Below the pieces are notes generated by a model. That model made no database searches. It was not told the origin of the DNA and saw only the letters and a program-made list of their open reading frames with translations. From Opitutia bacterium UBA4506 (lineage in GTDB: Bacteria > Verrucomicrobiota > Verrucomicrobiia > Opitutales > Puniceicoccaceae): 64,000 nucleotides of DNA. Positions 19,876-27,955 of this stretch are shown one piece after another. Numbering within the stretch: position 1 is the first letter of the stretch; every line of letters starts with the position of its first letter. Made by a program: the position numbers and the translations under genes. The stretch is taken from assembly GCA_002388665.1 (NCBI GenBank), contig DGMY01000040.1:8093-72092 (forward strand). Reading direction: 5' to 3'.

Positions 19876-21165
19876 TCAGGAAGGAATATCAGTTCGCTCG
19901 CAGACGGAATCGGCTATCGGATTGTGGAAGATATGAGTCGAAACGATCTGTGGCAGAAGCGATTGCTTGGCCTCGGCAGATTCGAACGACAGGATCCATA
20001 GTACTGAGCGCCCCAGCCGTGTCGGGTAGGGGAGATGGAACCGGTGGTGAAGGGTCTCGAGAATATGTCCCCCTTGGAGATCGTCCCGAGGAGTCACCTG
20101 AAGGATTGCAGTCGTGGAGGGGTCACCCGCTGGGCTGCGATTGATAAACTCCTTGTTGCTGTTGAACAGCTCACCGGTTTCGGTGAGGACCTTCTCCCAA
20201 TCATCTGGGAAATCATCGCCGTCGAGATCCCAGAGGATGCGCCGTTTAACCGAAACCGCGAAACCCATTCGCTGGAGACATTGCTCAACGGAACGGGCCG
20301 TAGTATCGGTGATGATCAGAGACACTGGGATGGTCTTGCCGGTCGACTCAACTGTGCAGCATCCAATTTCCTCTTTGGGAAGAGAGTACTGGAGAGCAGG
20401 CGCTTCGGTGGTTGCGCGTGATTCCATGGCCTCCCGCATGGAAGAGAAAATGGCATCACCCAAAGGAGTACGCTCGGGGTGGGGCATCATGGCCATCACG
20501 TTTCCCGCAGGATTGCAAACGGCGGCCAAATTGGCGGCGGAGCCATTTGGGTTGATTGGGAAATGTGAATCGGGCTCACCCTGGCTGTCGCTGTATTGGA
20601 ATACCCCCTGCCCGTTTGCAATAAGCTCCTCCAGTAGTTCTGGAGAGGCGAGGAAGCGACCCTCTGCATGGGCGAAGGGAACGTGGATGGTTTCCCCTTC
20701 CTTCAAGTGACGCGTGAAGGCGGTGCGTTCGGGAGCGACTGCGGTGCGCAAATGGCACCAATCGTTAAAGAAGCCGGACCCGAGGAGATGATCACCGACC
20801 TGGCGTCGATTTGGTGCGAGAGCCATGGCGGTGCGCCGATCGGAGACGCCGGGAACCAAGCCGCTCTCGACGAGGACCTGAGCGCCATTGCAGATACCGA
20901 GGACGGGTTTGCCCTTGTCTGCCTCAGCCGCGACGGACTTCAGTACTGGATCGAGTGAGGAAAGAACACCTGCGCGGGAGCGATCCTCGTAGGAGAAGCC
21001 TCCAACGATAAAGAACCCATCGAAGTCGGCGAGTTCTGCTGGATCGCGATTCCAAAGAAACTCCTCCGGCTGCATCCCGTTTCGTCGGATGGCTGCGGCG
21101 GACTCCGCCTCGCAATTGCTTCCGGGAAATTGGACAATGGCTACCCGTTTCATCTGTTCGCTCAT
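19876..21165 (-). CDS. purQ: FGAM synthase glutaminase subunit PurQ fused to two PurS-like domains
   Basis: FPGSNCE, GGFSYED, GICNGAQ, AHAEG, NPNGS, MPHPER; about 180 extra C-terminal residues with two PurS-like segments. Confidence 0.9.
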   Translation of the reverse strand: MSEQMKRVAIVQFPGSNCEAESAAAIRRNGMQPEEFLWNRDPAELADFDGFFIVGGFSYEDRSRAGVLSSLDPVLKSVAAEADKGKPVLGICNGAQVLVESGLVPGVSDRRTAMALAPNRRQVGDHLLGSGFFNDWCHLRTAVAPERTAFTRHLKEGETIHVPFAHAEGRFLASPELLEELIANGQGVFQYSDSQGEPDSHFPINPNGSAANLAAVCNPAGNVMAMMPHPERTPLGDAIFSSMREAMESRATTEAPALQYSLPKEEIGCCTVESTGKTIPVSLIITDTTARSVEQCLQRMGFAVSVKRRILWDLDGDDFPDDWEKVLTETGELFNSNKEFINRSPAGDPSTTAILQVTPRDDLQGGHILETLHHRFHLPYPTRLGRSVLWILSFESAEAKQSLLPQIVSTHIFHNPIADSVCERTDIPS

Positions 21166-22202
21166 TTCAGCAAGACCTTCTGATTTCCTTCGATAACCGA
21201 TCCGACCCGATACGCGTCGCCGCCGTCATTGCGGATGGCTTCCAAGGCGGCATCTGCTTGATCGGCTGGAACGACCGCGACCAAACCGACACCCATATTA
21301 AATGTGCGGTACATCTCGAGCTCCTCGACCTCACCGAGTTTCGCGATCACATCGAAAACAGGGAGTTTGGGCCAAGTGCCTTTCTCGATCTCAACCGCGG
21401 TTCCCTCAGGGAGAATTCTTGGAATGTTCTCGAGGAAACCGCCGCCGGTGATGTGGGACAGACCCTTGAGATTAATTCCTGAGGATAGCCACTTCTCGAT
21501 GGGCTTGCGGTAGTTCAGGTGCGGGCGAAGCAAGGCGTCGCCAACCGATTCACCCAACTCGTCCAAATGATCTTCGGTCGTCATCTTCGCGATCTCGAAG
21601 AAAACCTTACGAGCGAGTGAGAAACCATTGGTGTGTAAGCCGGATGAGGGGAGGGCGATCACGGCATCACCTACGGAAATCGAAGCACCATTGATGATCC
21701 GGTCCTTCTCGACCAAGCCGGTTACGCAGCCGACGATATCGTGCTCGCCGGGGAGGTAGGTCGAAGGCATCTCGGCGGTTTCTCCACCCACCAAGGCGAT
21801 CCCGTTCTCGCGGCAATTTTCAACCATGCCGGAAACGATCTCTTCGACCACGGCTGGATCGAGCTTCTCGTTGGCGATATAGTCGAGGAATGTGACTGGC
21901 TGAGCCCCGTGAACGAGAATATCGTTGGTCGTGGCACTGACCACATCGATACCCAGATTGTAGTATTTACCGGCCATTTTGGCGACCGATACCTTCGTCC
22001 CAACCCCGTCGATGCTTTGGATAAGGACAGGGTTGTTGTAATTTTTTAGCGTGGTTCCCAGCTCGACCATGGAGCCGAACGCACCCAGACCCGTGAGGAC
22101 TTCCGGTCCAAAGGTAGTTTTGACGAGAGGTCCAATCCGGTTGACGGCCTCGTTGCCGGCGTCGATATCGACTCCGGAGGATTTATAATCGGTTTTTGCC
22201 AT
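21162..22202 (-). CDS. purM: Phosphoribosylformylglycinamidine cyclo-ligase (AIR synthetase)
   Basis: YKSSGVDIDAGN, DGVGTK, LVGGETAEMP, SSGLHTNGFSL, HITGGG, RTFNMGVG. Confidence 0.97.
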   Translation of the reverse strand: MAKTDYKSSGVDIDAGNEAVNRIGPLVKTTFGPEVLTGLGAFGSMVELGTTLKNYNNPVLIQSIDGVGTKVSVAKMAGKYYNLGIDVVSATTNDILVHGAQPVTFLDYIANEKLDPAVVEEIVSGMVENCRENGIALVGGETAEMPSTYLPGEHDIVGCVTGLVEKDRIINGASISVGDAVIALPSSGLHTNGFSLARKVFFEIAKMTTEDHLDELGESVGDALLRPHLNYRKPIEKWLSSGINLKGLSHITGGGFLENIPRILPEGTAVEIEKGTWPKLPVFDVIAKLGEVEELEMYRTFNMGVGLVAVVPADQADAALEAIRNDGGDAYRVGSVIEGNQKVLLK

Positions 22203-22227
22203 GGCGTTGAAAAGTTCAGTAATAGTG

Positions 22228-24630
22228 TCAGGATTCTAGTTCCGTGCGAAGACCGTTTTCCCACGCGTCCGCCAATTCGGACAAGGGCAGGTCAAGGAGT
22301 GGGGCGATTCGGAACTGATCGCCGCCAGTTTGGCCAATTGAATGGAGAGTGACCCCTCGGATTTTGCAGAGAGATTCAAATGCAGCCACCTTGGATTCGG
22401 GTACCTCTACCAAGTAGCCGCCGAATTCACCCAGGAGGTGAGCTGGAGTATTTCCCAGTTGGTCGTGATCGATTGTTACCCCGATCCGATTGGCGATGGC
22501 ACTTTCCGCCAATGCGATGATGAGGCCGCCATCGGAGACATCGTGGCAGGCATTGATCAGGCCTGTTTCGATGGCATTGATGAGGGCCTGAGCGTTCTTT
22601 TCCTCCTCGGGGAGGTTGGGCTCGGGGATGCGGGGTGAATCGATTCCTTTGGACTCCAAGTAAATGGAGCCGGCAAGAGTATTCGCGAACTCGCCCACAT
22701 GGAAGACCCGGGATCCCTGCTCCTGGAAGCCGAAAGGCACCGCCTTGGACGCGTCGGGCATGCGGCCGAGACAGGCGATCATTGGGCTCGGTGGGATGGG
22801 TTGCCCCTGAGATTCATTGTAGAGAGAAACATTCCCACCGATGATGGGGATCGGGGCCTCTGGATAATCGGGGAGGTGAAGCGATTTCGCTGTCTGGGCA
22901 ACCGCTCGCATCCCGGCGACAAAGTCACCCATCTGTTCGGGTTTTTCCGGATTCCCGTAGCAGAGGCAGTCGGTGAACGCGACTGGACGGCCTCCGGTAG
23001 CGCAGACATTGCGGTAGGATTCGACGACTGCCCATGCCGCGCCGCGTCCTGCATCGATGCGATTGTGGCGTGGGTTCTGGTCCAGACTAACGACGGCGCC
23101 GGTTTCGCGGATCTCTTCGGGCCACTCGGGATCGACGAACGGCCGGAAAACCCCGGCGTCCCCTTTACCCGCTTCCACCTGAGTGGAGCCCTGAACCTGC
23201 TTGTCGTAGGATTCGAAAATCGGCTTGCGCGAAGCAATGTTCGGGTGTGCCAGAAGATCGATGAGATCTTTCGGCAAATCATCGAGAGAAATCGTGGGTT
23301 CTGCGACCGTGCTGTCGGAGTATTCCGGAAGAATAAATTCGCGGTCGTAGACGATCCCTTTGGTCACCTCTGCGGCTGGAGCCTCTACGAGAATTTCGCC
23401 ATTCCAAGTCACGCGGTAGAGTCCATCGTTGCGGATCTTGCCGACTACGGAAGCCTTGGCCCCATTGGAGACTTCGGGCAGGGCAAACGTCTCGTTGTAG
23501 TGCGAGAGGATGAGATCCACTAGATCATGGGGGACGGCCCACATGAATCGCTCCTGCGTCTCGGAGCAAAGGATCACGTGCGGGGGAAGACCTTCCATTC
23601 CCACGTGGACTTTCTCCACCTCCACCTCAGCCCCATATCCGGCTGAATCGGCGATCTCGACACTGGCGCAGGCGATCCCTCCTGCACCGAGATCCTTGAA
23701 TCCGACGCGGTCGATGTCGCCGCGTTCCAAGAGAATCTTATGCAGGGCGTAGGTGGCTTTGAGAAGATGCCGTTCGAGGAAAGCATTTGGCTCCTGCACC
23801 GCTCCCTTGTTCTTCTCCTTCTCATTTTCATCCAACTCGCCTGAGGCGAAGCTGGCTCCGCCAAATCCGCTATTGTCGGTTGGTTTTCCGACTAGAATCA
23901 GCGCATAGCCGTCAGCATTCTTGGGGGCATGGGAGTGGAGGATCGCGTTCTCTGCGATGGCTCCCAAAGTCATTACCGTCACCAGGCAATTGTCGTTGTA
24001 GCCCGCGTCGAAGTAGACATCGCCGCAAAGGTTGGGAATCCCCAAAGGGTTGCCGTATCCGGCGATACCGGCCACGACCCCCTGTTGGATCCACTTGCTC
24101 TTGGGGAGTTTGATGTCTCCAAAACGCAGCCCGTCACCCACGGCGACGACTTTCGCACCCATGCAGCAGACATCGCGTACGTTTCCGCCAACACCAGTGG
24201 CAGCTCCTTCGTAGGGAACCACCTGAGAAGGGTGGTTGTGCGATTCATGACTCGCGGCCAGGCCGTAGCGGATGCCGTTTTTGTCCCGGGCGATCTCTAC
24301 GATCCCCGCATCCTCTGAAGGACCGAGAATTACATTGGGACCGTCCGTGAGGAACTCCTTCAAATGGATACGGCTACTCTTGTAGGAGCAGTGCTCGGAA
24401 CCCTGAATCGACCACAGAACACACTCAGCAAGTGTGGGCGGGCGTTTGAGGATCCGATTTTGAATCTGGAGCGCTTCGTCGGGCGTCAGTGCAAGATTGT
24501 GTTCCCGAATTAGGGCGCGAATGGCGTCCTCTTCCAGATTGGAGAAATCGAGCGTGATCGGCGTGGTATTAGACCGGGTCATTTTGTTCAGATCAGGGGT
24601 TCCCTGTCGTGGAGTCAATTCCCCAGTCAC
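22228..24630 (-). CDS. purL: FGAM synthase subunit PurL (small type)
   Basis: SEHCSYKSS, EDAG, ESHNHPS, GAATGVGG, DLGAGG, ILCSETQERF, GGNVSLYNE, HDVSDGG; start may be 24582. Confidence 0.95.
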   Translation of the reverse strand: MTGELTPRQGTPDLNKMTRSNTTPITLDFSNLEEDAIRALIREHNLALTPDEALQIQNRILKRPPTLAECVLWSIQGSEHCSYKSSRIHLKEFLTDGPNVILGPSEDAGIVEIARDKNGIRYGLAASHESHNHPSQVVPYEGAATGVGGNVRDVCCMGAKVVAVGDGLRFGDIKLPKSKWIQQGVVAGIAGYGNPLGIPNLCGDVYFDAGYNDNCLVTVMTLGAIAENAILHSHAPKNADGYALILVGKPTDNSGFGGASFASGELDENEKEKNKGAVQEPNAFLERHLLKATYALHKILLERGDIDRVGFKDLGAGGIACASVEIADSAGYGAEVEVEKVHVGMEGLPPHVILCSETQERFMWAVPHDLVDLILSHYNETFALPEVSNGAKASVVGKIRNDGLYRVTWNGEILVEAPAAEVTKGIVYDREFILPEYSDSTVAEPTISLDDLPKDLIDLLAHPNIASRKPIFESYDKQVQGSTQVEAGKGDAGVFRPFVDPEWPEEIRETGAVVSLDQNPRHNRIDAGRGAAWAVVESYRNVCATGGRPVAFTDCLCYGNPEKPEQMGDFVAGMRAVAQTAKSLHLPDYPEAPIPIIGGNVSLYNESQGQPIPPSPMIACLGRMPDASKAVPFGFQEQGSRVFHVGEFANTLAGSIYLESKGIDSPRIPEPNLPEEEKNAQALINAIETGLINACHDVSDGGLIIALAESAIANRIGVTIDHDQLGNTPAHLLGEFGGYLVEVPESKVAAFESLCKIRGVTLHSIGQTGGDQFRIAPLLDLPLSELADAWENGLRTELES

Positions 24631-24817
24631 ATGACGATGAGATTCACCGAAAAAATGCAGTGGTAAAATTCGAGTTTTCCCACTTTTGCGGAGCGGTTGA
24701 GATTAGGTGGGATTCGTTCTCGGGCACCAGATGATTCCTGTTTTGCCCTTATTAAACATAATAGATGAATTAAAAATCGGCATTGCAGAATAAAGGAATT
24801 TGTGAAACGGTTGTGGG

Positions 24818-25588
24818 ATGTCGCATTCTCAGACAGTTCAATCGCTCCACCGGGGACTGGATCTCCTCGAGTCGATTGCGGATGCTTCGCAAGGATTGAC
24901 CAGCAAGGAACTGGCCCAGCGAACCCGGCTTAAGAGTACGACGTTTTTCAATTTAGCGCGGACATTGGTAGAGCGGGGATACCTGCAAAAATCGAACACT
25001 CGACCGGTGATTTACTCGATGGGTCCGGCGCTGGAGGAGCTGTGTGGTGGGAATGTATCGACCAGCCGGGCCGCATTGGATGAATCACTGCTGCGACTAT
25101 CGCGCCAGTTTCCCGCTTGGCGGTTTGTCACGGCGGAAGCGCACGGGGTGGACATCAGGATTGCTCATGCCATCGAACCGGCGCGCCCCGAAACCGTCTT
25201 GCACGACACCCGTAAGTGGATGCCACCCTATACCTCAGCATCCAGCCTATGCCATCTTGCGTTTTGGCCGAGCGAGCGCGCGAAATCGTTTCAAGCGGCC
25301 TATCCATTCCCGATGTATGGAGTTGGCCTGTGGGGCAGGGAGGAGAAGCTCGATCAGGCGATCGCTGACTTCCGAGCCAAGGGGGCGGTGGAGATTTACG
25401 AACTCAGCCCCGCACGAATGGCGGTACCCCTATACAATCGAAACAACCAGCTAGTCGCTTCCCTGGGAGCTAGTTCTACCTCGGGGCTGGAGCATGCCCG
25501 GGAGGATCTGGTGGCCATTCTTGAGTTGTTAAAAACCGAGGCGAAATTTCTATGTCCCCACCTCGGTCGGGTTCCTTCGGAGACCTGA
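24818..25588 (+). CDS. IclR family transcriptional regulator
   Basis: VQSLHRGLDLLE..GLTSKELAQ..LKSTT.FNLARTLVERGYL; C-terminal AVP......VASLG. Confidence 0.85.
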   Translation: MSHSQTVQSLHRGLDLLESIADASQGLTSKELAQRTRLKSTTFFNLARTLVERGYLQKSNTRPVIYSMGPALEELCGGNVSTSRAALDESLLRLSRQFPAWRFVTAEAHGVDIRIAHAIEPARPETVLHDTRKWMPPYTSASSLCHLAFWPSERAKSFQAAYPFPMYGVGLWGREEKLDQAIADFRAKGAVEIYELSPARMAVPLYNRNNQLVASLGASSTSGLEHAREDLVAILELLKTEAKFLCPHLGRVPSET

Positions 25589-25620
25589 TCCACACTGTTT
25601 ACTCCAAACACGATTACAAA

Positions 25621-26724
25621 ATGAAAGAACAAACACTACCCATCATCGACGCGGACGTCCACCACGCACCGGACCCTGCGGGCATCAAAAAGCACATGCC
25701 TCGTGCGTTGGCAGAACGTGGACTCATCGTGCCCGGTGCGCAGGGGTATCGCAATCCGCATGGTGTTGATCGTCGCGACGCGGTCCCGCCCGGTGGAGGG
25801 AAGCCCTGTTCTGATCCCGCGTACGCGCTGGAGCATCATTTCGAGCCCAACAACATCAAGTATGGTATTCTTCACCCAGGTGGAACGCTCGGGGTCGGTG
25901 TAGGTGCCGATTACCGGCTCTCTGCGGCGATTTGCAGCGGCTACAATGATTACATGTTGGAAAGTTGGTTGAGCTTTGATGAGCGGTTTGTGGGCGCTCT
26001 ACTCGTGGCTCCAAACTGGCCGGAAGCGGCAGCAAAGGAAATTCGGCGAGTCGGCCACCGTCCGGAGTTTCGTGAGATCATCATGACTTCGGCCTCGGAA
26101 TCTCCCTTTGGTAACGTCCGCTATTGGCCGATCTATGAGGCTGCGAGCGAAGTCGGCTTGCCAGTAGCCTTTCACCCCGGCGCGGAAAGCAACGGCATCG
26201 GAAATCGATCCTACGCGGGTACGCCGTCGAGTTATTTTGAATGGCACACCAGTCTTTCGCAGAACTACATGGGGCAGATCGCCTCCCTGGTCATCGAGGG
26301 AGTCTTCAATGAGTTTCCTAGCTTGAATTTCATTGCTGTCGAGGGTGGGTTTGCCTGGTTGCCTCACCTGATGTGGCGCCTGGATAAGAACTGGAAGGCG
26401 CTGCGCGAAACAACACCTTGGCTAACAGAGCCTCCCAGTGAAATGATCATGCGTCACGTGAAGATGACGACTCAGCCGATTGAAGAGCCGACGAAGGCTG
26501 AGCATTTGCTCCAAATTTTCGACATGATTGACGCCCCGAATACGCTAATGTTTTCCAGTGATTATCCGCACTGGGATGGCGACGATCCAAGATTTGTAAT
26601 CCCTCGTAAACTGGGTGAAGAAGTGCGCCGGAAGATCTTCTACGACAATGCTGCCGAAATGTACGGCCTGCCCAAGATTGAAGCGCAGGAGTCCGCTGAA
26701 GTCGCAACCGGGGAGGGGAACTAA
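25621..26724 (+). CDS. Amidohydrolase family 2 protein, candidate dinuclear oxygenase
   Basis: IIDADVH, AICSGYNDY, FHPG, VEGGFAWLP, FSSDYPHWD; stop overlaps the Rieske gene start. Confidence 0.85.
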   Translation: MKEQTLPIIDADVHHAPDPAGIKKHMPRALAERGLIVPGAQGYRNPHGVDRRDAVPPGGGKPCSDPAYALEHHFEPNNIKYGILHPGGTLGVGVGADYRLSAAICSGYNDYMLESWLSFDERFVGALLVAPNWPEAAAKEIRRVGHRPEFREIIMTSASESPFGNVRYWPIYEAASEVGLPVAFHPGAESNGIGNRSYAGTPSSYFEWHTSLSQNYMGQIASLVIEGVFNEFPSLNFIAVEGGFAWLPHLMWRLDKNWKALRETTPWLTEPPSEMIMRHVKMTTQPIEEPTKAEHLLQIFDMIDAPNTLMFSSDYPHWDGDDPRFVIPRKLGEEVRRKIFYDNAAEMYGLPKIEAQESAEVATGEGN

Positions 26725-27167
26725 TGCCGAAAACAAAGCATCGAGTCTGCCGGGCGAATGAGTTGAATAAGGGGGAGCACCGTATCGTGGAAATCGATGG
26801 GAAATCGATCGGCGTGTACAACGTCGGAGGTTCTTATCATGCGATCCGCAATCTGTGCCCGCACCAATTGGCCCCATTGTGCAAAGGACACCATGGAGGG
26901 ACCACACTGCCTGGGAAGGTCGGAGAGTTTGAGTATGGAATGGAGGATCAGGTTGTTCGTTGCCCATGGCACGGCTGGGAGTTCGACGTGACCACCGGGC
27001 GCAGCCTCTTTAACCCTCATCGCTGTCGCGTGAAATCCTATAAAGTATTTTGCGAGGATGAGAATGGTAATACCCAGGAGAAGACTCTGTCGTCAGACGA
27101 TCCCGATCCCTCTGTCGAAACCTACCCGGTTTCGGTCGAAGAAACCTGGGTGGTCGTGGAGGCGTAG
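26724..27167 (+). CDS. Rieske [2Fe-2S] ferredoxin
   Basis: CPHQLAPLC and CPWHGWEFD ligand motifs. Confidence 0.92.
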   Translation: MPKTKHRVCRANELNKGEHRIVEIDGKSIGVYNVGGSYHAIRNLCPHQLAPLCKGHHGGTTLPGKVGEFEYGMEDQVVRCPWHGWEFDVTTGRSLFNPHRCRVKSYKVFCEDENGNTQEKTLSSDDPDPSVETYPVSVEETWVVVEA

Positions 27168-27442
27168 TTCGCTTTAATAATTCGATTTCTCTTGAGGGTC
27201 TCGATCGGGTGTATCGAGGCCCTCTTTGCGATCGAGAGGAGTGTAGCACTGGAGGGCTCGATTCTCCGATCATACGACCGCGCGCCTGTCCGTCTACTCC
27301 ATTCGCGGGTGTCGTCATTCGGCTAGGCCCGAACCGTGTATGTGATTACTGAAAATGTGAGAAAAATTGACGGCGGAGATTTGCCATTGCGGAGATTCTG
27401 CCTTCTCTTCGAAGCGTTGCATTTTATTAAACCAAAACACCT

Positions 27443-27955
27443 ATGAAACGAACCATTGCCTCGCTCTTTTCTTTTTCAATTTTGATCTCCGCACTGAACG
27501 GCGGGACCCTCCAAGAGAACCTATCAGAGGATCTGGTAAAGCTGGATGGAGAGGAATTGGTTTCGGCTTCCGACGCCCTGGAAGGGAAGGAAATCATCGC
27601 AGTCTACTATTCGGCTCACTGGTGCCCTCCATGCCGTCAATTTACACCAGGACTCTCTGAGTTCTATGATGAAGCCTCTGCCGAGTATCCAAACTTTCAG
27701 ATGGTATTCATGAGCAACGATCGCAGCGCGGATGCGATGGAAGGGTACATGAAGTGGGGTAAGATGAACTTCCCTGCTATCAAATATGATGAGCGCGGAG
27801 AATCGGGACTGGAAAAGTTTTCTGCCCGGGGAATTCCTTACCTAGTCGTGCTGGATGCCGACGGGAATCAACTTCTCGGCAAGGCGCCCGGAGAGTCTTG
27901 GCAGAGCCCTGCGATTACTTTGGCGGATTTGAAGAAGCTGCTTAAGGATTCTTAA
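27443..27955 (+). CDS. Secreted thioredoxin-like protein (nucleoredoxin/tryparedoxin type)
   Basis: Signal peptide; YYSAHWCPPCRQFTP, GIPYLVVLD. Confidence 0.88.
   Translation: MKRTIASLFSFSILISALNGGTLQENLSEDLVKLDGEELVSASDALEGKEIIAVYYSAHWCPPCRQFTPGLSEFYDEASAEYPNFQMVFMSNDRSADAMEGYMKWGKMNFPAIKYDERGESGLEKFSARGIPYLVVLDADGNQLLGKAPGESWQSPAITLADLKKLLKDS

What the first reader, a model, noticed from the sequence alone, without database searches (positions are those of the whole stretch)
24818..27167. IclR + amidohydrolase + Rieske module: candidate dinuclear C-H oxygenase, not a hydrolase
Seen: the amidohydrolase has D-x-H (DADVH) rather than H-x-H, plus FHPG, VEGG and DYPHWD, and is translationally coupled (TAATG) to a Rieske ferredoxin. 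Established: amidohydrolase-related dinuclear oxygenases such as PtmU3 and AibH1H2 use a carboxylate-rich TIM-barrel site, and the Aib system has a Rieske ferredoxin. Inference: an IclR-controlled monooxygenase for an unknown substrate, here with one subunit only and no adjacent reductase.
Basis: partly seen in the sequence, partly recalled or inferred. Interest (0 to 1): 0.65.

Follow-up and report, generated by a model that had tools for sequence, protein, structure and literature searches.

The report
Rieske-coupled Mn/Fe oxygenase operon
The "amidohydrolase" at 25621-26724 is really an oxygen-activating two-metal oxygenase of the recently described ARO superfamily. It is encoded together with its Rieske electron carrier and an IclR regulator, so it is a correct but ordinary new member of a known family, and its substrate is still unknown.

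Summary
Three co-directional genes encode an IclR regulator (24818-25588), a PF04909 protein (25621-26724) and a Rieske [2Fe-2S] ferredoxin (26724-27167), the last two joined by a TAATG stop/start overlap.

The PF04909 protein has both signature motifs of amidohydrolase-related dinuclear oxygenases (AROs; Liu et al., JACS 2024 and 2026): N-terminal D12-V13-H14 and C-terminal D314-Y-P-H317-W-D319. It also has the remaining metal ligands H185 and E241. Its best solved relative is the orphan ARO D3EI84 (PDB 8SM7; E 3.8e-105, 49% identity, model TM 0.90-0.95). SfbO and AibH2 follow, and decarboxylases are far behind (E 3e-16).

The published predictor residues are V13 (gamma1), H85 (gamma2) and W318 (gamma4). 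They place it in the low-potential, Mn-preferring class.

In a well-supported clade from Verrucomicrobiota and Planctomycetota, the ARO-Rieske pair recurs in 10 of 12 loci and IclR in 7 of 12. The flanking genes are always unrelated, and no reductase is nearby.

The substrate remains unknown; a 4-O-methylglucuronate lead was tested and weakened. Novelty: new member of a known kind.

The parts
24754..24770 (+). Candidate IclR operator: imperfect palindrome AAACATAATAGATGAAT (consensus ATTCAT-N5-ATGAAT), -64 to -48 from the iclR ATG
   Evidence: The same 17-nt element lies at the same distance from the iclR start in L001 (Puniceicoccus vermicola; perfect ATTCAT-aatag-ATGAAT) and in L082. L083 has two related palindromes. 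The 14-mer CATAATAGATGAAT is identical in the window and L001, while the rest of the upstream region does not align. The degenerate pattern alone is not significant within the window (7 matches against 3.2 expected). Function is inferred.
24783..24791 (+). Second conserved upstream box TTGCAGAAT (TTGNNGAWT), 12 nt after the palindrome; possible promoter element or second half-site
   Evidence: The alignment of four upstream regions shows TTG..GA.T conserved at fixed spacing. Its role is not tested.
24818..25588 (+). IclR-family transcriptional regulator (256 aa)
   Evidence: Pfam HTH_IclR 42.7 bits against a cut-off of 22. Full-length but weak similarity to PcaR/PcaU-type IclR proteins: TIGR02431 residues 5-247, E 9.5e-12, below its cut-off; PDB 8EJU residues 7-247, E 6.6e-4. 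Orthologues (31-51% identity) sit upstream of the ARO in L001, L082, L083, L085, L087 and L004.
25621..26724 (+). Amidohydrolase-related dinuclear oxygenase (ARO), 367 aa, predicted low-potential/Mn-preferring class. An alternative upstream start at 25552 overlaps iclR.
   Evidence: PF04909 E 1.5e-39. PDB phmmer: 8SM7 3.8e-105, 8SM6 2.7e-73, 8SM8 2.5e-63, 8SM9 5.5e-60, AibH2 7.6e-57, PtmU3 6.5e-20, LigW 3.1e-16. AF2 model pLDDT 88.5. Foldseek TM 0.90/0.95 and rmsd 1.5 A to 8SM7.
25654..25662 (+). Codons for D12-V13-H14, the N-terminal D-x-H motif (two ligands of metal site 1; gamma1 = Val)
   Evidence: Read from the sequence. Invariant D12 and H14, with V or I at position 13, in 27 homologues. 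Motif definition from PMC13154177.
26560..26577 (+). Codons for D314-Y-P-H317-W318-D319, the C-terminal D-x-P-H-x-[D/E] ARO motif (bridging Asp, site-2 His, gamma4 = Trp, second-sphere Asp)
   Evidence: Read from the sequence. Invariant in 27 homologues. Motif definition from PMC13154177. The equivalent AibH2 D342A mutant loses activity (PMC10401708).
26722..26726 (+). TAATG stop/start overlap between the ARO and Rieske genes
   Evidence: Equally tight junctions occur in relatives: a 1-nt overlap in L001, 4-nt overlaps in L083 and L091, an 8-nt overlap in L088 and a 2-nt gap in L082.
26724..27167 (+). Small Rieske [2Fe-2S] ferredoxin (147 aa), presumed electron donor to the ARO. Cluster ligands are C45-P-H47 (26856-26864) and C80-P-W-H83 (26961-26972). 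It has an invariant surface-candidate W85, a 16-aa insertion between the ligand loops and an acidic insertion of about 20 aa near the C-terminus.
   Evidence: Pfam Rieske 63.7 bits against a cut-off of 20.3. PDB relatives are dioxygenase ferredoxins (2I7F 9.9e-10), and that alignment shows the 16-residue gap. Ligands and W85 are invariant in 9 ARO-linked ferredoxins.
27194..27224 (+). G+C-rich hairpin (GAGGGUCUCGAU...AUCGAGGCCCUC) 27 nt after the Rieske stop; tentative operon terminator
   Evidence: RNA fold. The z-score of the 96-nt region is only -1.43, and the consensus terminator scan did not list it. Weak evidence.

Best explanation
This is an IclR-regulated operon for a multicomponent, O2-dependent monooxygenase of the ARO superfamily.

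Proposed mechanism: an unlinked NAD(P)H-dependent reductase reduces the Rieske [2Fe-2S] ferredoxin (26724-27167). The ferredoxin docks on the TIM-barrel oxygenase (25621-26724) and passes electrons one at a time to a carboxylate-bridged dinuclear site.
- Site 1 ligands: D12, H14, H185, bridging E241 and bridging D314.
- Site 2 ligands: E241, D314 and H317.
- D319 hydrogen-bonds a water bound to site 2.

The reduced cluster is predicted to be Mn/Fe (or Mn2) rather than Fe2, because gamma1 = Val13, gamma2 = His85 and gamma4 = Trp318. It activates O2 and hydroxylates an sp3 C-H bond of a small polar substrate. If that carbon is next to O or N, the net result is dealkylation.

The IclR protein probably binds the conserved palindrome at 24754-24770 and releases or activates the operon when the substrate or a related metabolite is present.

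What is shown: gene order, motifs, homology and fold, and conservation of the cassette. What is inferred: metal identity, electron path, regulation and reaction type. The substrate is unknown; the contexts of more distant relatives point loosely to carbohydrate-derived compounds.
For: Sequence and fold:
- Both ARO signature motifs and all six ligand positions are present and invariant in 27 homologues. Definitions come from PMC13154177, PMC10811679 and PMC10401708.
- Solved AROs are the top sequence hits (8SM7 3.8e-105 ... AibH2 7.6e-57), against 3e-16 for the best decarboxylase.
- BLASTP gives 49% identity to D3EI84 and 38% to SfbO.
- The AF2 model (pLDDT 88.5, pTM 0.90) superposes on 8SM7 at TM 0.90/0.95, on SfbO at 0.89/0.93 and on AibH2 at 0.87. 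Decarboxylases reach no more than 0.71 on the query-normalised score.

Metal class:
- The criteria of Table 1 in PMC13154177 (gamma1 hydrophobic, gamma2 hydrophilic, gamma4 aromatic) are all met.

Rieske partner:
- The Rieske protein has a complete CxH...CxxH ligand set and is joined to the ARO gene by TAATG.
- A Rieske gene lies within 3 kb in 71 of 79 homologous genome loci, and next to the ARO in 10 of 12 loci of the close clade.

Regulation:
- IclR orthologues are linked to the ARO in 7 of 12 clade loci, and an upstream palindrome is conserved.
Against: - There is no biochemical evidence for this protein. Even its closest solved relative, D3EI84, has no known substrate or demonstrated turnover (PMC10811679 and PMC13154177).
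- No reductase gene lies in the window contig, and the genome has no BphA4-type reductase (PF14759). The electron source is therefore unidentified.
- gamma5, the residue reported to stack on the ferredoxin Trp, is Gly320 here rather than aromatic. One characterised L-ARO (F4KXV9) has Ala there.
- gamma2 is a His-Pro pair, not the small hydrophilic residue typical of L-AROs.
- Some AROs catalyse oxidative decarboxylation rather than hydroxylation.
- Pfam does not detect the IclR effector domain at E <= 0.01.
- The operator pattern is not statistically distinctive within the window.
Confidence: 0.85

Rival explanations
1. The enzyme is an ARO, but it is not a simple hydroxylase. It would use the same dinuclear site and Rieske-delivered electrons for another oxidative outcome, such as oxidative decarboxylation or desaturation (as in the BarH/LynB7/DolJ/E0U9F9 group) or heteroatom oxygenation.
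For: ARO chemistry is already known to include thiazoline-4-carboxylate oxidative decarboxylation (PMC13154177). The substrate of the whole D3EI84-like branch is unknown, so the reaction type cannot be read from homology.
Against: The known non-hydroxylating AROs are high-potential, diiron enzymes that lack Rieske partners. The Rieske-linked low-potential members with a demonstrated reaction (AibH2, SfbO) are C-H hydroxylases.
Confidence: 0.1
2. It is a conventional PF04909 enzyme: a non-redox, mononuclear-metal hydrolase, hydratase or decarboxylase. The Rieske gene would then be functionally unrelated, for example a NirD-like or other redox protein.
For: Public annotations call all homologues 'amidohydrolase family protein'. 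NCBIfam has no specific model for it. The Rieske protein gives sub-threshold hits to NirD (51.8 bits against a cut-off of 74.65).
Against: - It has D-x-H in place of the first-strand motifs of the characterised PF04909 hydrolases and decarboxylases, which do not bind their metal through a D-x-H motif.
- It has the D-x-P-H-x-D loop, which is absent from all characterised hydrolases and decarboxylases of the fold.
- Decarboxylases are about 90 orders of magnitude weaker hits than AROs and fit the model worse (query-normalised TM <= 0.71 against 0.90).
- The Rieske protein keeps all four cluster ligands and is tightly coupled to the ARO across phyla.
Confidence: 0.03
3. It is the same oxygenase, but in vivo it works with a diiron cofactor rather than Mn/Fe or Mn2. 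The Mn prediction would then fail for this His-gamma2/Gly-gamma5 subtype.
For: SfbO is cambialistic and active with Fe2. All four crystallised orphans were obtained as Fe2 forms. gamma2 His-Pro is atypical. The predictor was validated on only about 15 proteins.
Against: gamma1, gamma2 and gamma4 all satisfy the published Mn-class rule. The protein is nearest to experimentally low-potential members (D3EI84, SfbO, AibH2) and far from PtmU3 and DitZ.
Confidence: 0.2

Closest known systems
D3EI84 ('G. y4 TruffO', PDB 8SM7) from 'Geobacillus' strain Y412MC10: orphan low-potential ARO (Liu et al., JACS 2024; JACS 2026)
   Same: It is the best sequence and fold match: E 3.8e-105, 49% identity, TM 0.90/0.95. 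It shares the D-V-H and DYPHWD motifs, the E-W-H-T segment and the PPGGGK..SDP loop. It has a single subunit type, an adjacent Rieske ferredoxin and no known substrate.
   Different: It lies outside the 29-member Verrucomicrobiota/Planctomycetota clade that holds the window protein. Its gamma2 is Thr (here His-Pro) and its gamma5 is Phe (here Gly). The Paenibacillus-type relatives that sit outside this clade with D3EI84 lie beside sugar ABC transporters and AraC regulators rather than an IclR gene.
SfbO/SfbR (PDB 8SM6), the cambialistic Mn/Fe sulfonate beta-monooxygenase of Litorilinea aerophila
   Same: Same ligand set, the L-ARO class residues V and W at gamma1 and gamma4, a Rieske partner with a Trp at position 85, and homomeric oxygenase architecture.
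   Different: Only 38% identical. The sulfonate-binding Arg232 and Arg235 are replaced by His209 and Leu212 (read from the alignment), so a sulfonate substrate is unlikely. gamma5 is Trp in SfbO and Gly here.
AibH1H2-AibG-AibF, the three-component 2-aminoisobutyrate hydroxylase of Rhodococcus wratislaviensis (PDB 6M1W, 8FUN)
   Same: AibH2 is homologous (E 7.6e-57, TM 0.87) and has the same dinuclear site. A Rieske ferredoxin is encoded next to the oxygenase, and the cofactor is Mn/Fe.
   Different: There is no AibH1-like second subunit, no AibF-type FMN/[2Fe-2S] reductase, and no permease or downstream catabolic genes in the operon.
PtmU3 and DitZ (high-potential, diiron AROs)
   Same: Same superfamily motifs and TIM-barrel dinuclear site.
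   Different: They are distant: PtmU3 E 6.5e-20 and TM 0.73; DitZ E 3e-4. They have hydrophilic gamma1, aromatic gamma2 and usually no Rieske partner.
PF04909 decarboxylases and hydrolases (LigW, gamma-resorcylate decarboxylase, ACMSD, LigI)
   Same: Same (beta/alpha)8 Amidohydro_2 fold. The strand-5 His and strand-8 Asp positions are shared.
   Different: They have mononuclear sites or no metal. They lack D-x-H and the D-x-P-H-x-D loop and have no redox partner. Sequence E-values are 1e-16 or weaker.

Membership tests
ARO superfamily (amidohydrolase-related dinuclear oxygenases) | PF04909 (Amidohydro_2) TIM-barrel fold | tested here: met
   Pfam E 1.5e-39, profile 2-289 of 289. AF2 model TM 0.90 to 8SM7.
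ARO superfamily (amidohydrolase-related dinuclear oxygenases) | N-terminal D-x-H motif on beta-strand 1 (two ligands of site 1) | tested here: met
   D12-V13-H14, codons 25654-25662. It lies in predicted strand E8-15 and is invariant in 27 homologues.
ARO superfamily (amidohydrolase-related dinuclear oxygenases) | C-terminal D-x-P-H-x-[D/E] motif preceded by at least about 200 residues | tested here: met
   D314-Y-P-H-W-D319, with 313 residues before it.
ARO superfamily (amidohydrolase-related dinuclear oxygenases) | Remaining site-1 ligands (strand-5 His and a bridging Glu) | tested here: met
   H185 (AFHPG) and E241 (VEGG) align with AIHPG and LVEGG of 8SM7 and with CVHFG and FIEHD of SfbO. 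They are invariant in 27 homologues. Metal binding itself was not observed.
ARO superfamily (amidohydrolase-related dinuclear oxygenases) | Redox-active two-metal cofactor and O2-dependent oxidation of a substrate | not testable with these tools
   This needs purified protein (ICP, UV/vis, EPR and activity assays).
Low-potential, Mn-preferring L-ARO class (PMC13154177, Table 1) | gamma1 hydrophobic, gamma2 hydrophilic, gamma4 aromatic | tested here: met
   gamma1 = V13; gamma2 = H85 (aligned to the Thr of ILTGG in relatives); gamma4 = W318.
Low-potential, Mn-preferring L-ARO class (PMC13154177, Table 1) | Hydrophobic or aromatic gamma5 at the ferredoxin interface (typical, stated not to be decisive) | tested here: not met
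   gamma5 = G320; it is G, N or F across the clade. The characterised L-ARO F4KXV9 has Ala here.
Low-potential, Mn-preferring L-ARO class (PMC13154177, Table 1) | Rieske ferredoxin gene in the neighbourhood | tested here: met
   Overlapping downstream gene. Seen in 71 of 79 homologous loci.
Rieske-type [2Fe-2S] ferredoxin | C-x-H ... C-x-x-H ligand motif in a small soluble protein (<250 aa) | tested here: met
   C45-P-H47 and C80-P-W-H83 in a 147-aa protein. Pfam PF00355 63.7 bits against a cut-off of 20.3. The spacing between motifs is 32 aa, about 16 longer than in dioxygenase ferredoxins.
IclR family of transcription regulators | N-terminal winged HTH_IclR domain | tested here: met
   PF09339 42.7 bits against a cut-off of 22, residues 9-58.
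IclR family of transcription regulators | C-terminal IclR effector-binding domain (PF01614) | tested here: inconclusive
   PF01614 was not reported at E <= 0.01. Full-length weak alignments exist to TIGR02431 (residues 5-247, 44.8 bits, far below its 284.75 cut-off) and to the PcaR structure 8EJU (residues 7-247, E 6.6e-4).
AibH1H2GF-type three-component monooxygenase | Second, catalytically inert PF04909 subunit (AibH1) and a dedicated ferredoxin:NAD+ reductase (AibF) in the cluster | tested here: not met
   There is only one PF04909 gene in the operon. The other PF04909 genes of the genome lie on other contigs. No PF00175, PF14759 or PF07992 protein is on the window contig.

The most novel reading that the evidence does not exclude
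The IclR-ARO-Rieske cassette of Verrucomicrobiota and Planctomycetota would be a distinct, self-contained L-ARO subtype. Its marks are His-Pro at gamma2, Gly at gamma5 and a ferredoxin with two insertions. It would carry out a single-step, inducible Mn/Fe-dependent hydroxylation or dealkylation of a carbohydrate-derived or other polar metabolite. That reaction would have no known enzyme in these phyla, and the cassette would draw electrons from a non-dedicated housekeeping reductase.
Probability: 0.15. Interest if true: 0.55.

Novelty: new member of a known kind. Interest (0 to 1): 0.3.

Why it matters
It adds a clear, well-delimited example to a superfamily of about 17,000 proteins that are mostly still annotated as 'amidohydrolase'. 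Here too, NCBIfam gives no name and public records say 'amidohydrolase family protein'.

The useful points beyond re-annotation are these:
- A compact three-gene cassette with its own regulator is a tractable entry point for finding the native substrate of the orphan D3EI84-like branch, by IclR ligand screening and operator binding.
- The genome carries two different ARO-Rieske pairs and one Rieske oxygenase but no recognisable dedicated reductase. This sharpens the open question of who reduces these ferredoxins.
- The His-Pro at gamma2 and Gly at gamma5 test the published metal-preference and docking rules.

None of this would surprise a specialist who has read the 2024 and 2026 papers.

Tried and rejected
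1. 4-O-methylglucuronate (or another methyl-ether sugar) as substrate.
- The lead came from one clade member (L087) where IclR-ARO-ARO2 is followed by GH115 alpha-glucuronidase, GH10 xylanase and EamA.
- tblastn of those genes against all 88 loci found them only in L087.
- The window genome (99% complete) has neither GH115 nor GH67, while a congener without the ARO has GH115.
- No paper linking AROs to sugar demethylation was found.
- The lead is not supported for this organism.

2. Dedicated reductase.
- PF14759 is absent from the genome.
- PF00175 occurs only in two membrane-anchored FNR-Fer2 fusions (contigs C87 and C9) and in CysJ (C90).
- The ten PF07992 matches (nine open frames) are all on other contigs.
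- No reductase cluster recurs near 67 homologous loci.

3. Sigma-70 promoter, intrinsic terminator and inverted-repeat scans of the operon gave nothing convincing. The ATTCAT-N5-ATGAAT pattern with up to 2 mismatches is not enriched in the window.

4. Sulfonate substrate as in SfbO: the two sulfonate-binding arginines are not conserved (alignment).

5. The exact-sequence look-up of the window protein found no contig.

7. Coordinates of the predicted model are not exposed to the Python box, so pocket residues could not be mapped.

8. My own ORF caller was unreliable in high-GC MAGs. Clade contexts therefore rest on the pre-called genes from the look-up of encoding contigs.

9. Earlier notes of this scan on the same genome concerned other genes and did not bear on this finding.
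Full report
**1. What is in the sequence**

Three co-directional ORFs occupy 24818-27167:
- a 256-aa protein with an HTH_IclR domain (E 4.6e-11);
- a PF04909/Amidohydro_2 protein (E 1.5e-39, covering the whole profile);
- a 147-aa Rieske protein (E 1.5e-17).

NCBIfam has no model that names the PF04909 protein. Its most likely start is the ATG at 25621, which gives 367 aa. That is the form stored in the protein collection, and it fits the N-termini of homologues. It leaves a 32-nt gap after iclR.

The TAA stop of the PF04909 gene (26722-26724) shares its last base with the ATG of the Rieske gene. Relatives have equally tight junctions: overlaps of 1, 4 or 8 nt, or a 2-nt gap.

**2. What the PF04909 protein is**

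A phmmer search of PDB sequences ranks five groups of solved proteins at the top:

| PDB entry | Protein | E-value |
|---|---|---|
| 8SM7 | D3EI84 | 3.8e-105 |
| 8SM6 | SfbO | 2.7e-73 |
| 8SM8 | B6JH23 | 2.5e-63 |
| 8SM9 | W7L2Y2 | 5.5e-60 |
| 6M1W_B | AibH2 | 7.6e-57 |
| 6OMP | PtmU3 | 6.5e-20 |
| 4ICM | LigW (best non-redox enzyme) | 3.1e-16 |

The supplement of PMC10811679 assigns 8SM7 to D3EI84, 8SM8 to B6JH23 and 8SM9 to W7L2Y2. BLASTP identity is 49% to D3EI84 and 38% to SfbO.

An AlphaFold2 model built on 27 homologues has pLDDT 88.5 and pTM 0.90. It superposes on 8SM7 with TM 0.90/0.95 and rmsd 1.5 A, and on SfbO, B6JH23, AibH2 and W7L2Y2 with TM 0.83-0.90. PtmU3 gives 0.73, and decarboxylases give no more than 0.71 on the query-normalised score.

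**3. Comparison with the published family**

Liu et al. (JACS 2024, PMC10811679) defined 'amidohydrolase-related dinuclear oxygenases' (AROs).

The 2026 follow-up (PMC13154177) expanded the family to about 17,000 sequences. It defined the family by an N-terminal D-x-H motif and a C-terminal D-x-P-H-x-[D/E] motif, neither of which occurs in characterised PF04909 hydrolases or decarboxylases.

The window protein has D12-V13-H14 and D314-Y-P-H317-W-D319. It also has H185 and E241 at the positions of the other site-1 ligands. All of these are invariant in 27 homologues of 46-77% identity. The ligand count matches the published descriptions: five protein ligands at site 1 and three at site 2, from two bridging carboxylates, one terminal carboxylate and three histidines. 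D319 corresponds to AibH2 D342, whose mutation to alanine impairs activity.

**4. Predicted metal class**

PMC13154177 separates two classes by three second-sphere positions:
- low-potential, Mn-using AROs have gamma1 hydrophobic, gamma2 hydrophilic and gamma4 aromatic;
- high-potential, diiron AROs have the opposite pattern.

Here gamma1 = V13, gamma2 = H85 and gamma4 = W318. H85 is in ILHPGG, aligned to the Thr of ILTGG. All three Mn-class criteria are met.

Two details deviate from the typical picture. First, gamma2 is a His-Pro pair throughout the closest subclade. Second, gamma5 is Gly320, whereas in SfbO this residue is the Trp reported to stack on Trp85 of the ferredoxin. The paper states that gamma5 does not decide metal preference, and one characterised L-ARO has Ala there.

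**5. The Rieske protein**

It keeps the complete ligand set, C45-P-H47 and C80-P-W-H83, followed by an invariant G-W85-E-F-D. Compared with dioxygenase ferredoxins it has a 16-residue insertion between the two ligand loops. This clade also has an acidic insertion of about 20 residues before the last strand.

Of 79 homologous loci from reference genomes (38-65% identity), 52 have a Rieske gene within 300 nt downstream on the same strand, 8 have one just upstream, 11 have one within 3 kb and 8 have none.

**6. The cassette and its regulator**

A maximum-likelihood tree places the window protein in a 29-member clade (support 100/98). D3EI84 and the Paenibacillus sequences fall outside it.

Twelve loci of this clade were inspected: the window, L001, L082-L087, L089-L091 and L004.
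- The ARO and Rieske genes are adjacent in 10 of them.
- An orthologous IclR gene (31-51% identity to the window's) lies directly upstream in 6 and about 2.4 kb upstream in 1.
- The flanking genes are unrelated in every case. Examples are purL and a thioredoxin-like gene here, a toxin-antitoxin pair and molybdopterin synthesis genes in Puniceicoccus vermicola, and ribosomal and division genes elsewhere.

Within the window's own genus only 2 of 8 genomes carry the orthologue. No other genome of the family has a match at E <= 1e-40, and the few matches elsewhere in the order are only 35-41% identical. The cassette is therefore a small, self-contained accessory unit.

Upstream of iclR, a 17-nt imperfect palindrome (24754-24770, AAACATAATAGATGAAT) lies at -64 to -48 from the start codon. 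It sits at the same position as ATTCATAATAGATGAAT in P. vermicola and ATTCTATTATTATGAAT in L082. A TTGNNGAWT box follows 12 nt later in four genomes.

This is a reasonable candidate for the IclR operator and promoter. However, the degenerate pattern alone is not enriched in the window, and no binding has been shown.

**7. Electron source**

No reductase gene is in the operon or on the window contig. The genome as a whole:
- lacks PF14759 (BphA4-type reductase C-terminal domain);
- has PF00175 only in two membrane-anchored FNR-[2Fe-2S] fusions and in CysJ;
- has ten Pyr_redox_2 matches (nine open frames), all on other contigs.

No reductase family recurs near the 67 clustered homologous loci either. 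The published in-vitro work on SfbO used ascorbate as the sacrificial reductant in its assays.

**8. Substrate**

The substrate cannot be assigned.

More distant relatives (40-50% identity; mostly Paenibacillus and Chloroflexota) often lie beside carbohydrate-related genes:
- binding-protein-dependent sugar-type ABC permeases (22 and 18 of 67 loci);
- solute-binding proteins;
- AraC regulators (11 loci);
- Gfo/Idh/MocA oxidoreductases, sulfatases and enolase-superfamily dehydratases.

This gives a loose carbohydrate theme only.

One clade member has GH115 and GH10 genes downstream, which suggested 4-O-methylglucuronate demethylation. That link is unique to the one locus, and the window genome has no GH115 or GH67, so I reject it for this organism.

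The two arginines that hold the sulfonate in SfbO are His209 and Leu212 here (alignment), which argues against a sulfonate substrate.

**9. Verdict**

This is an ARO-type, Rieske-dependent dinuclear oxygenase under probable IclR control.

It is not new in kind. The family, its motifs, its Rieske association, its single-subunit members and its lack of linked reductases are all described in the 2024 and 2026 papers.

What remains open:
- the substrate and reaction;
- the reductase;
- whether the His-Pro at gamma2 and Gly at gamma5 behave as the published rules predict.

Confidence that it is an ARO oxygenase is about 0.85-0.9. Confidence in any substrate class is low.

Noticed in passing
own genome, contig C92:4555-5954 (- strand), outside the window: There is a second ARO-Rieske pair in the same genome. 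The 349-aa oxygenase (DTDIHH ... SDYPHWDFDD) is a close homologue of W7L2Y2 (PDB 8SM9, E 1.7e-171). It sits in what looks, judged by eye from the translations without a family search, like a LacI-flanked cluster. The neighbours resemble an SDR, a Gfo/Idh/MocA oxidoreductase, a Zn-ADH-like oxidoreductase, an Ldh_2-family dehydrogenase, a fumarylacetoacetate-hydrolase-family protein, a phosphotriesterase-like lactonase and an MFS transporter. This is a much richer context for guessing a substrate, possibly a sugar acid or lactone.
   Followed up: partly
own genome, contig C23:40333-44326 (- strand), outside the window: A 449-aa Rieske-type oxygenase alpha subunit lies next to genes that, read by eye from the translations, resemble an FGE/sulfatase-modifying-factor-like protein, a xylose-isomerase-like TIM-barrel protein and NitT/TauT-type ABC transporter components. 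Again there is no reductase. The genome thus has three Rieske-dependent systems and no recognisable dedicated ferredoxin reductase.
   Followed up: partly
L087:5150-12394 (metagenome contig; ARO 62% identical to the window's): The gene order is IclR, ARO, a second divergent PF04909 gene, GH115, GH10 and EamA, with no Rieske gene in the 13-kb locus. The tandem PF04909 pair recalls the AibH1H2 heteromer.
   Followed up: partly
window 25873-25878 (H85-P86) and 26578-26580 (G320): The closest subclade has His-Pro at the gamma2 position, next to the site-1 Asp, where other L-AROs have Thr or a small hydrophilic residue. It has Gly at gamma5 while the ferredoxin keeps Trp85. The effect on metal site 1 or on docking is unexplained.
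   Followed up: no
window 27443-27955 (+): The downstream gene encodes a 170-aa secreted or lipoprotein-like thioredoxin-fold protein with a WCPPC motif (Thioredoxin_8, E 1.7e-16). It is separated from the Rieske gene by 275 nt and is not conserved next to the cassette in relatives, so it is probably unrelated.
   Followed up: partly
L014:8500-11451 (Akkermansiaceae MAG) and L064, L072, L026: Some genomes carry two or three tandem ARO genes, in L014 and L064 each with its own Rieske gene. This suggests local duplication and diversification of the pair.
   Followed up: no
window 20000-24630 (- strand): Upstream of the cassette lie purine-biosynthesis genes that I named by eye from the ORF translations (PurQ with a C-terminal extension, PurM, PurL). 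They are transcribed divergently from iclR. Another first-stage note already covers the PurQ fusion.
   Followed up: no
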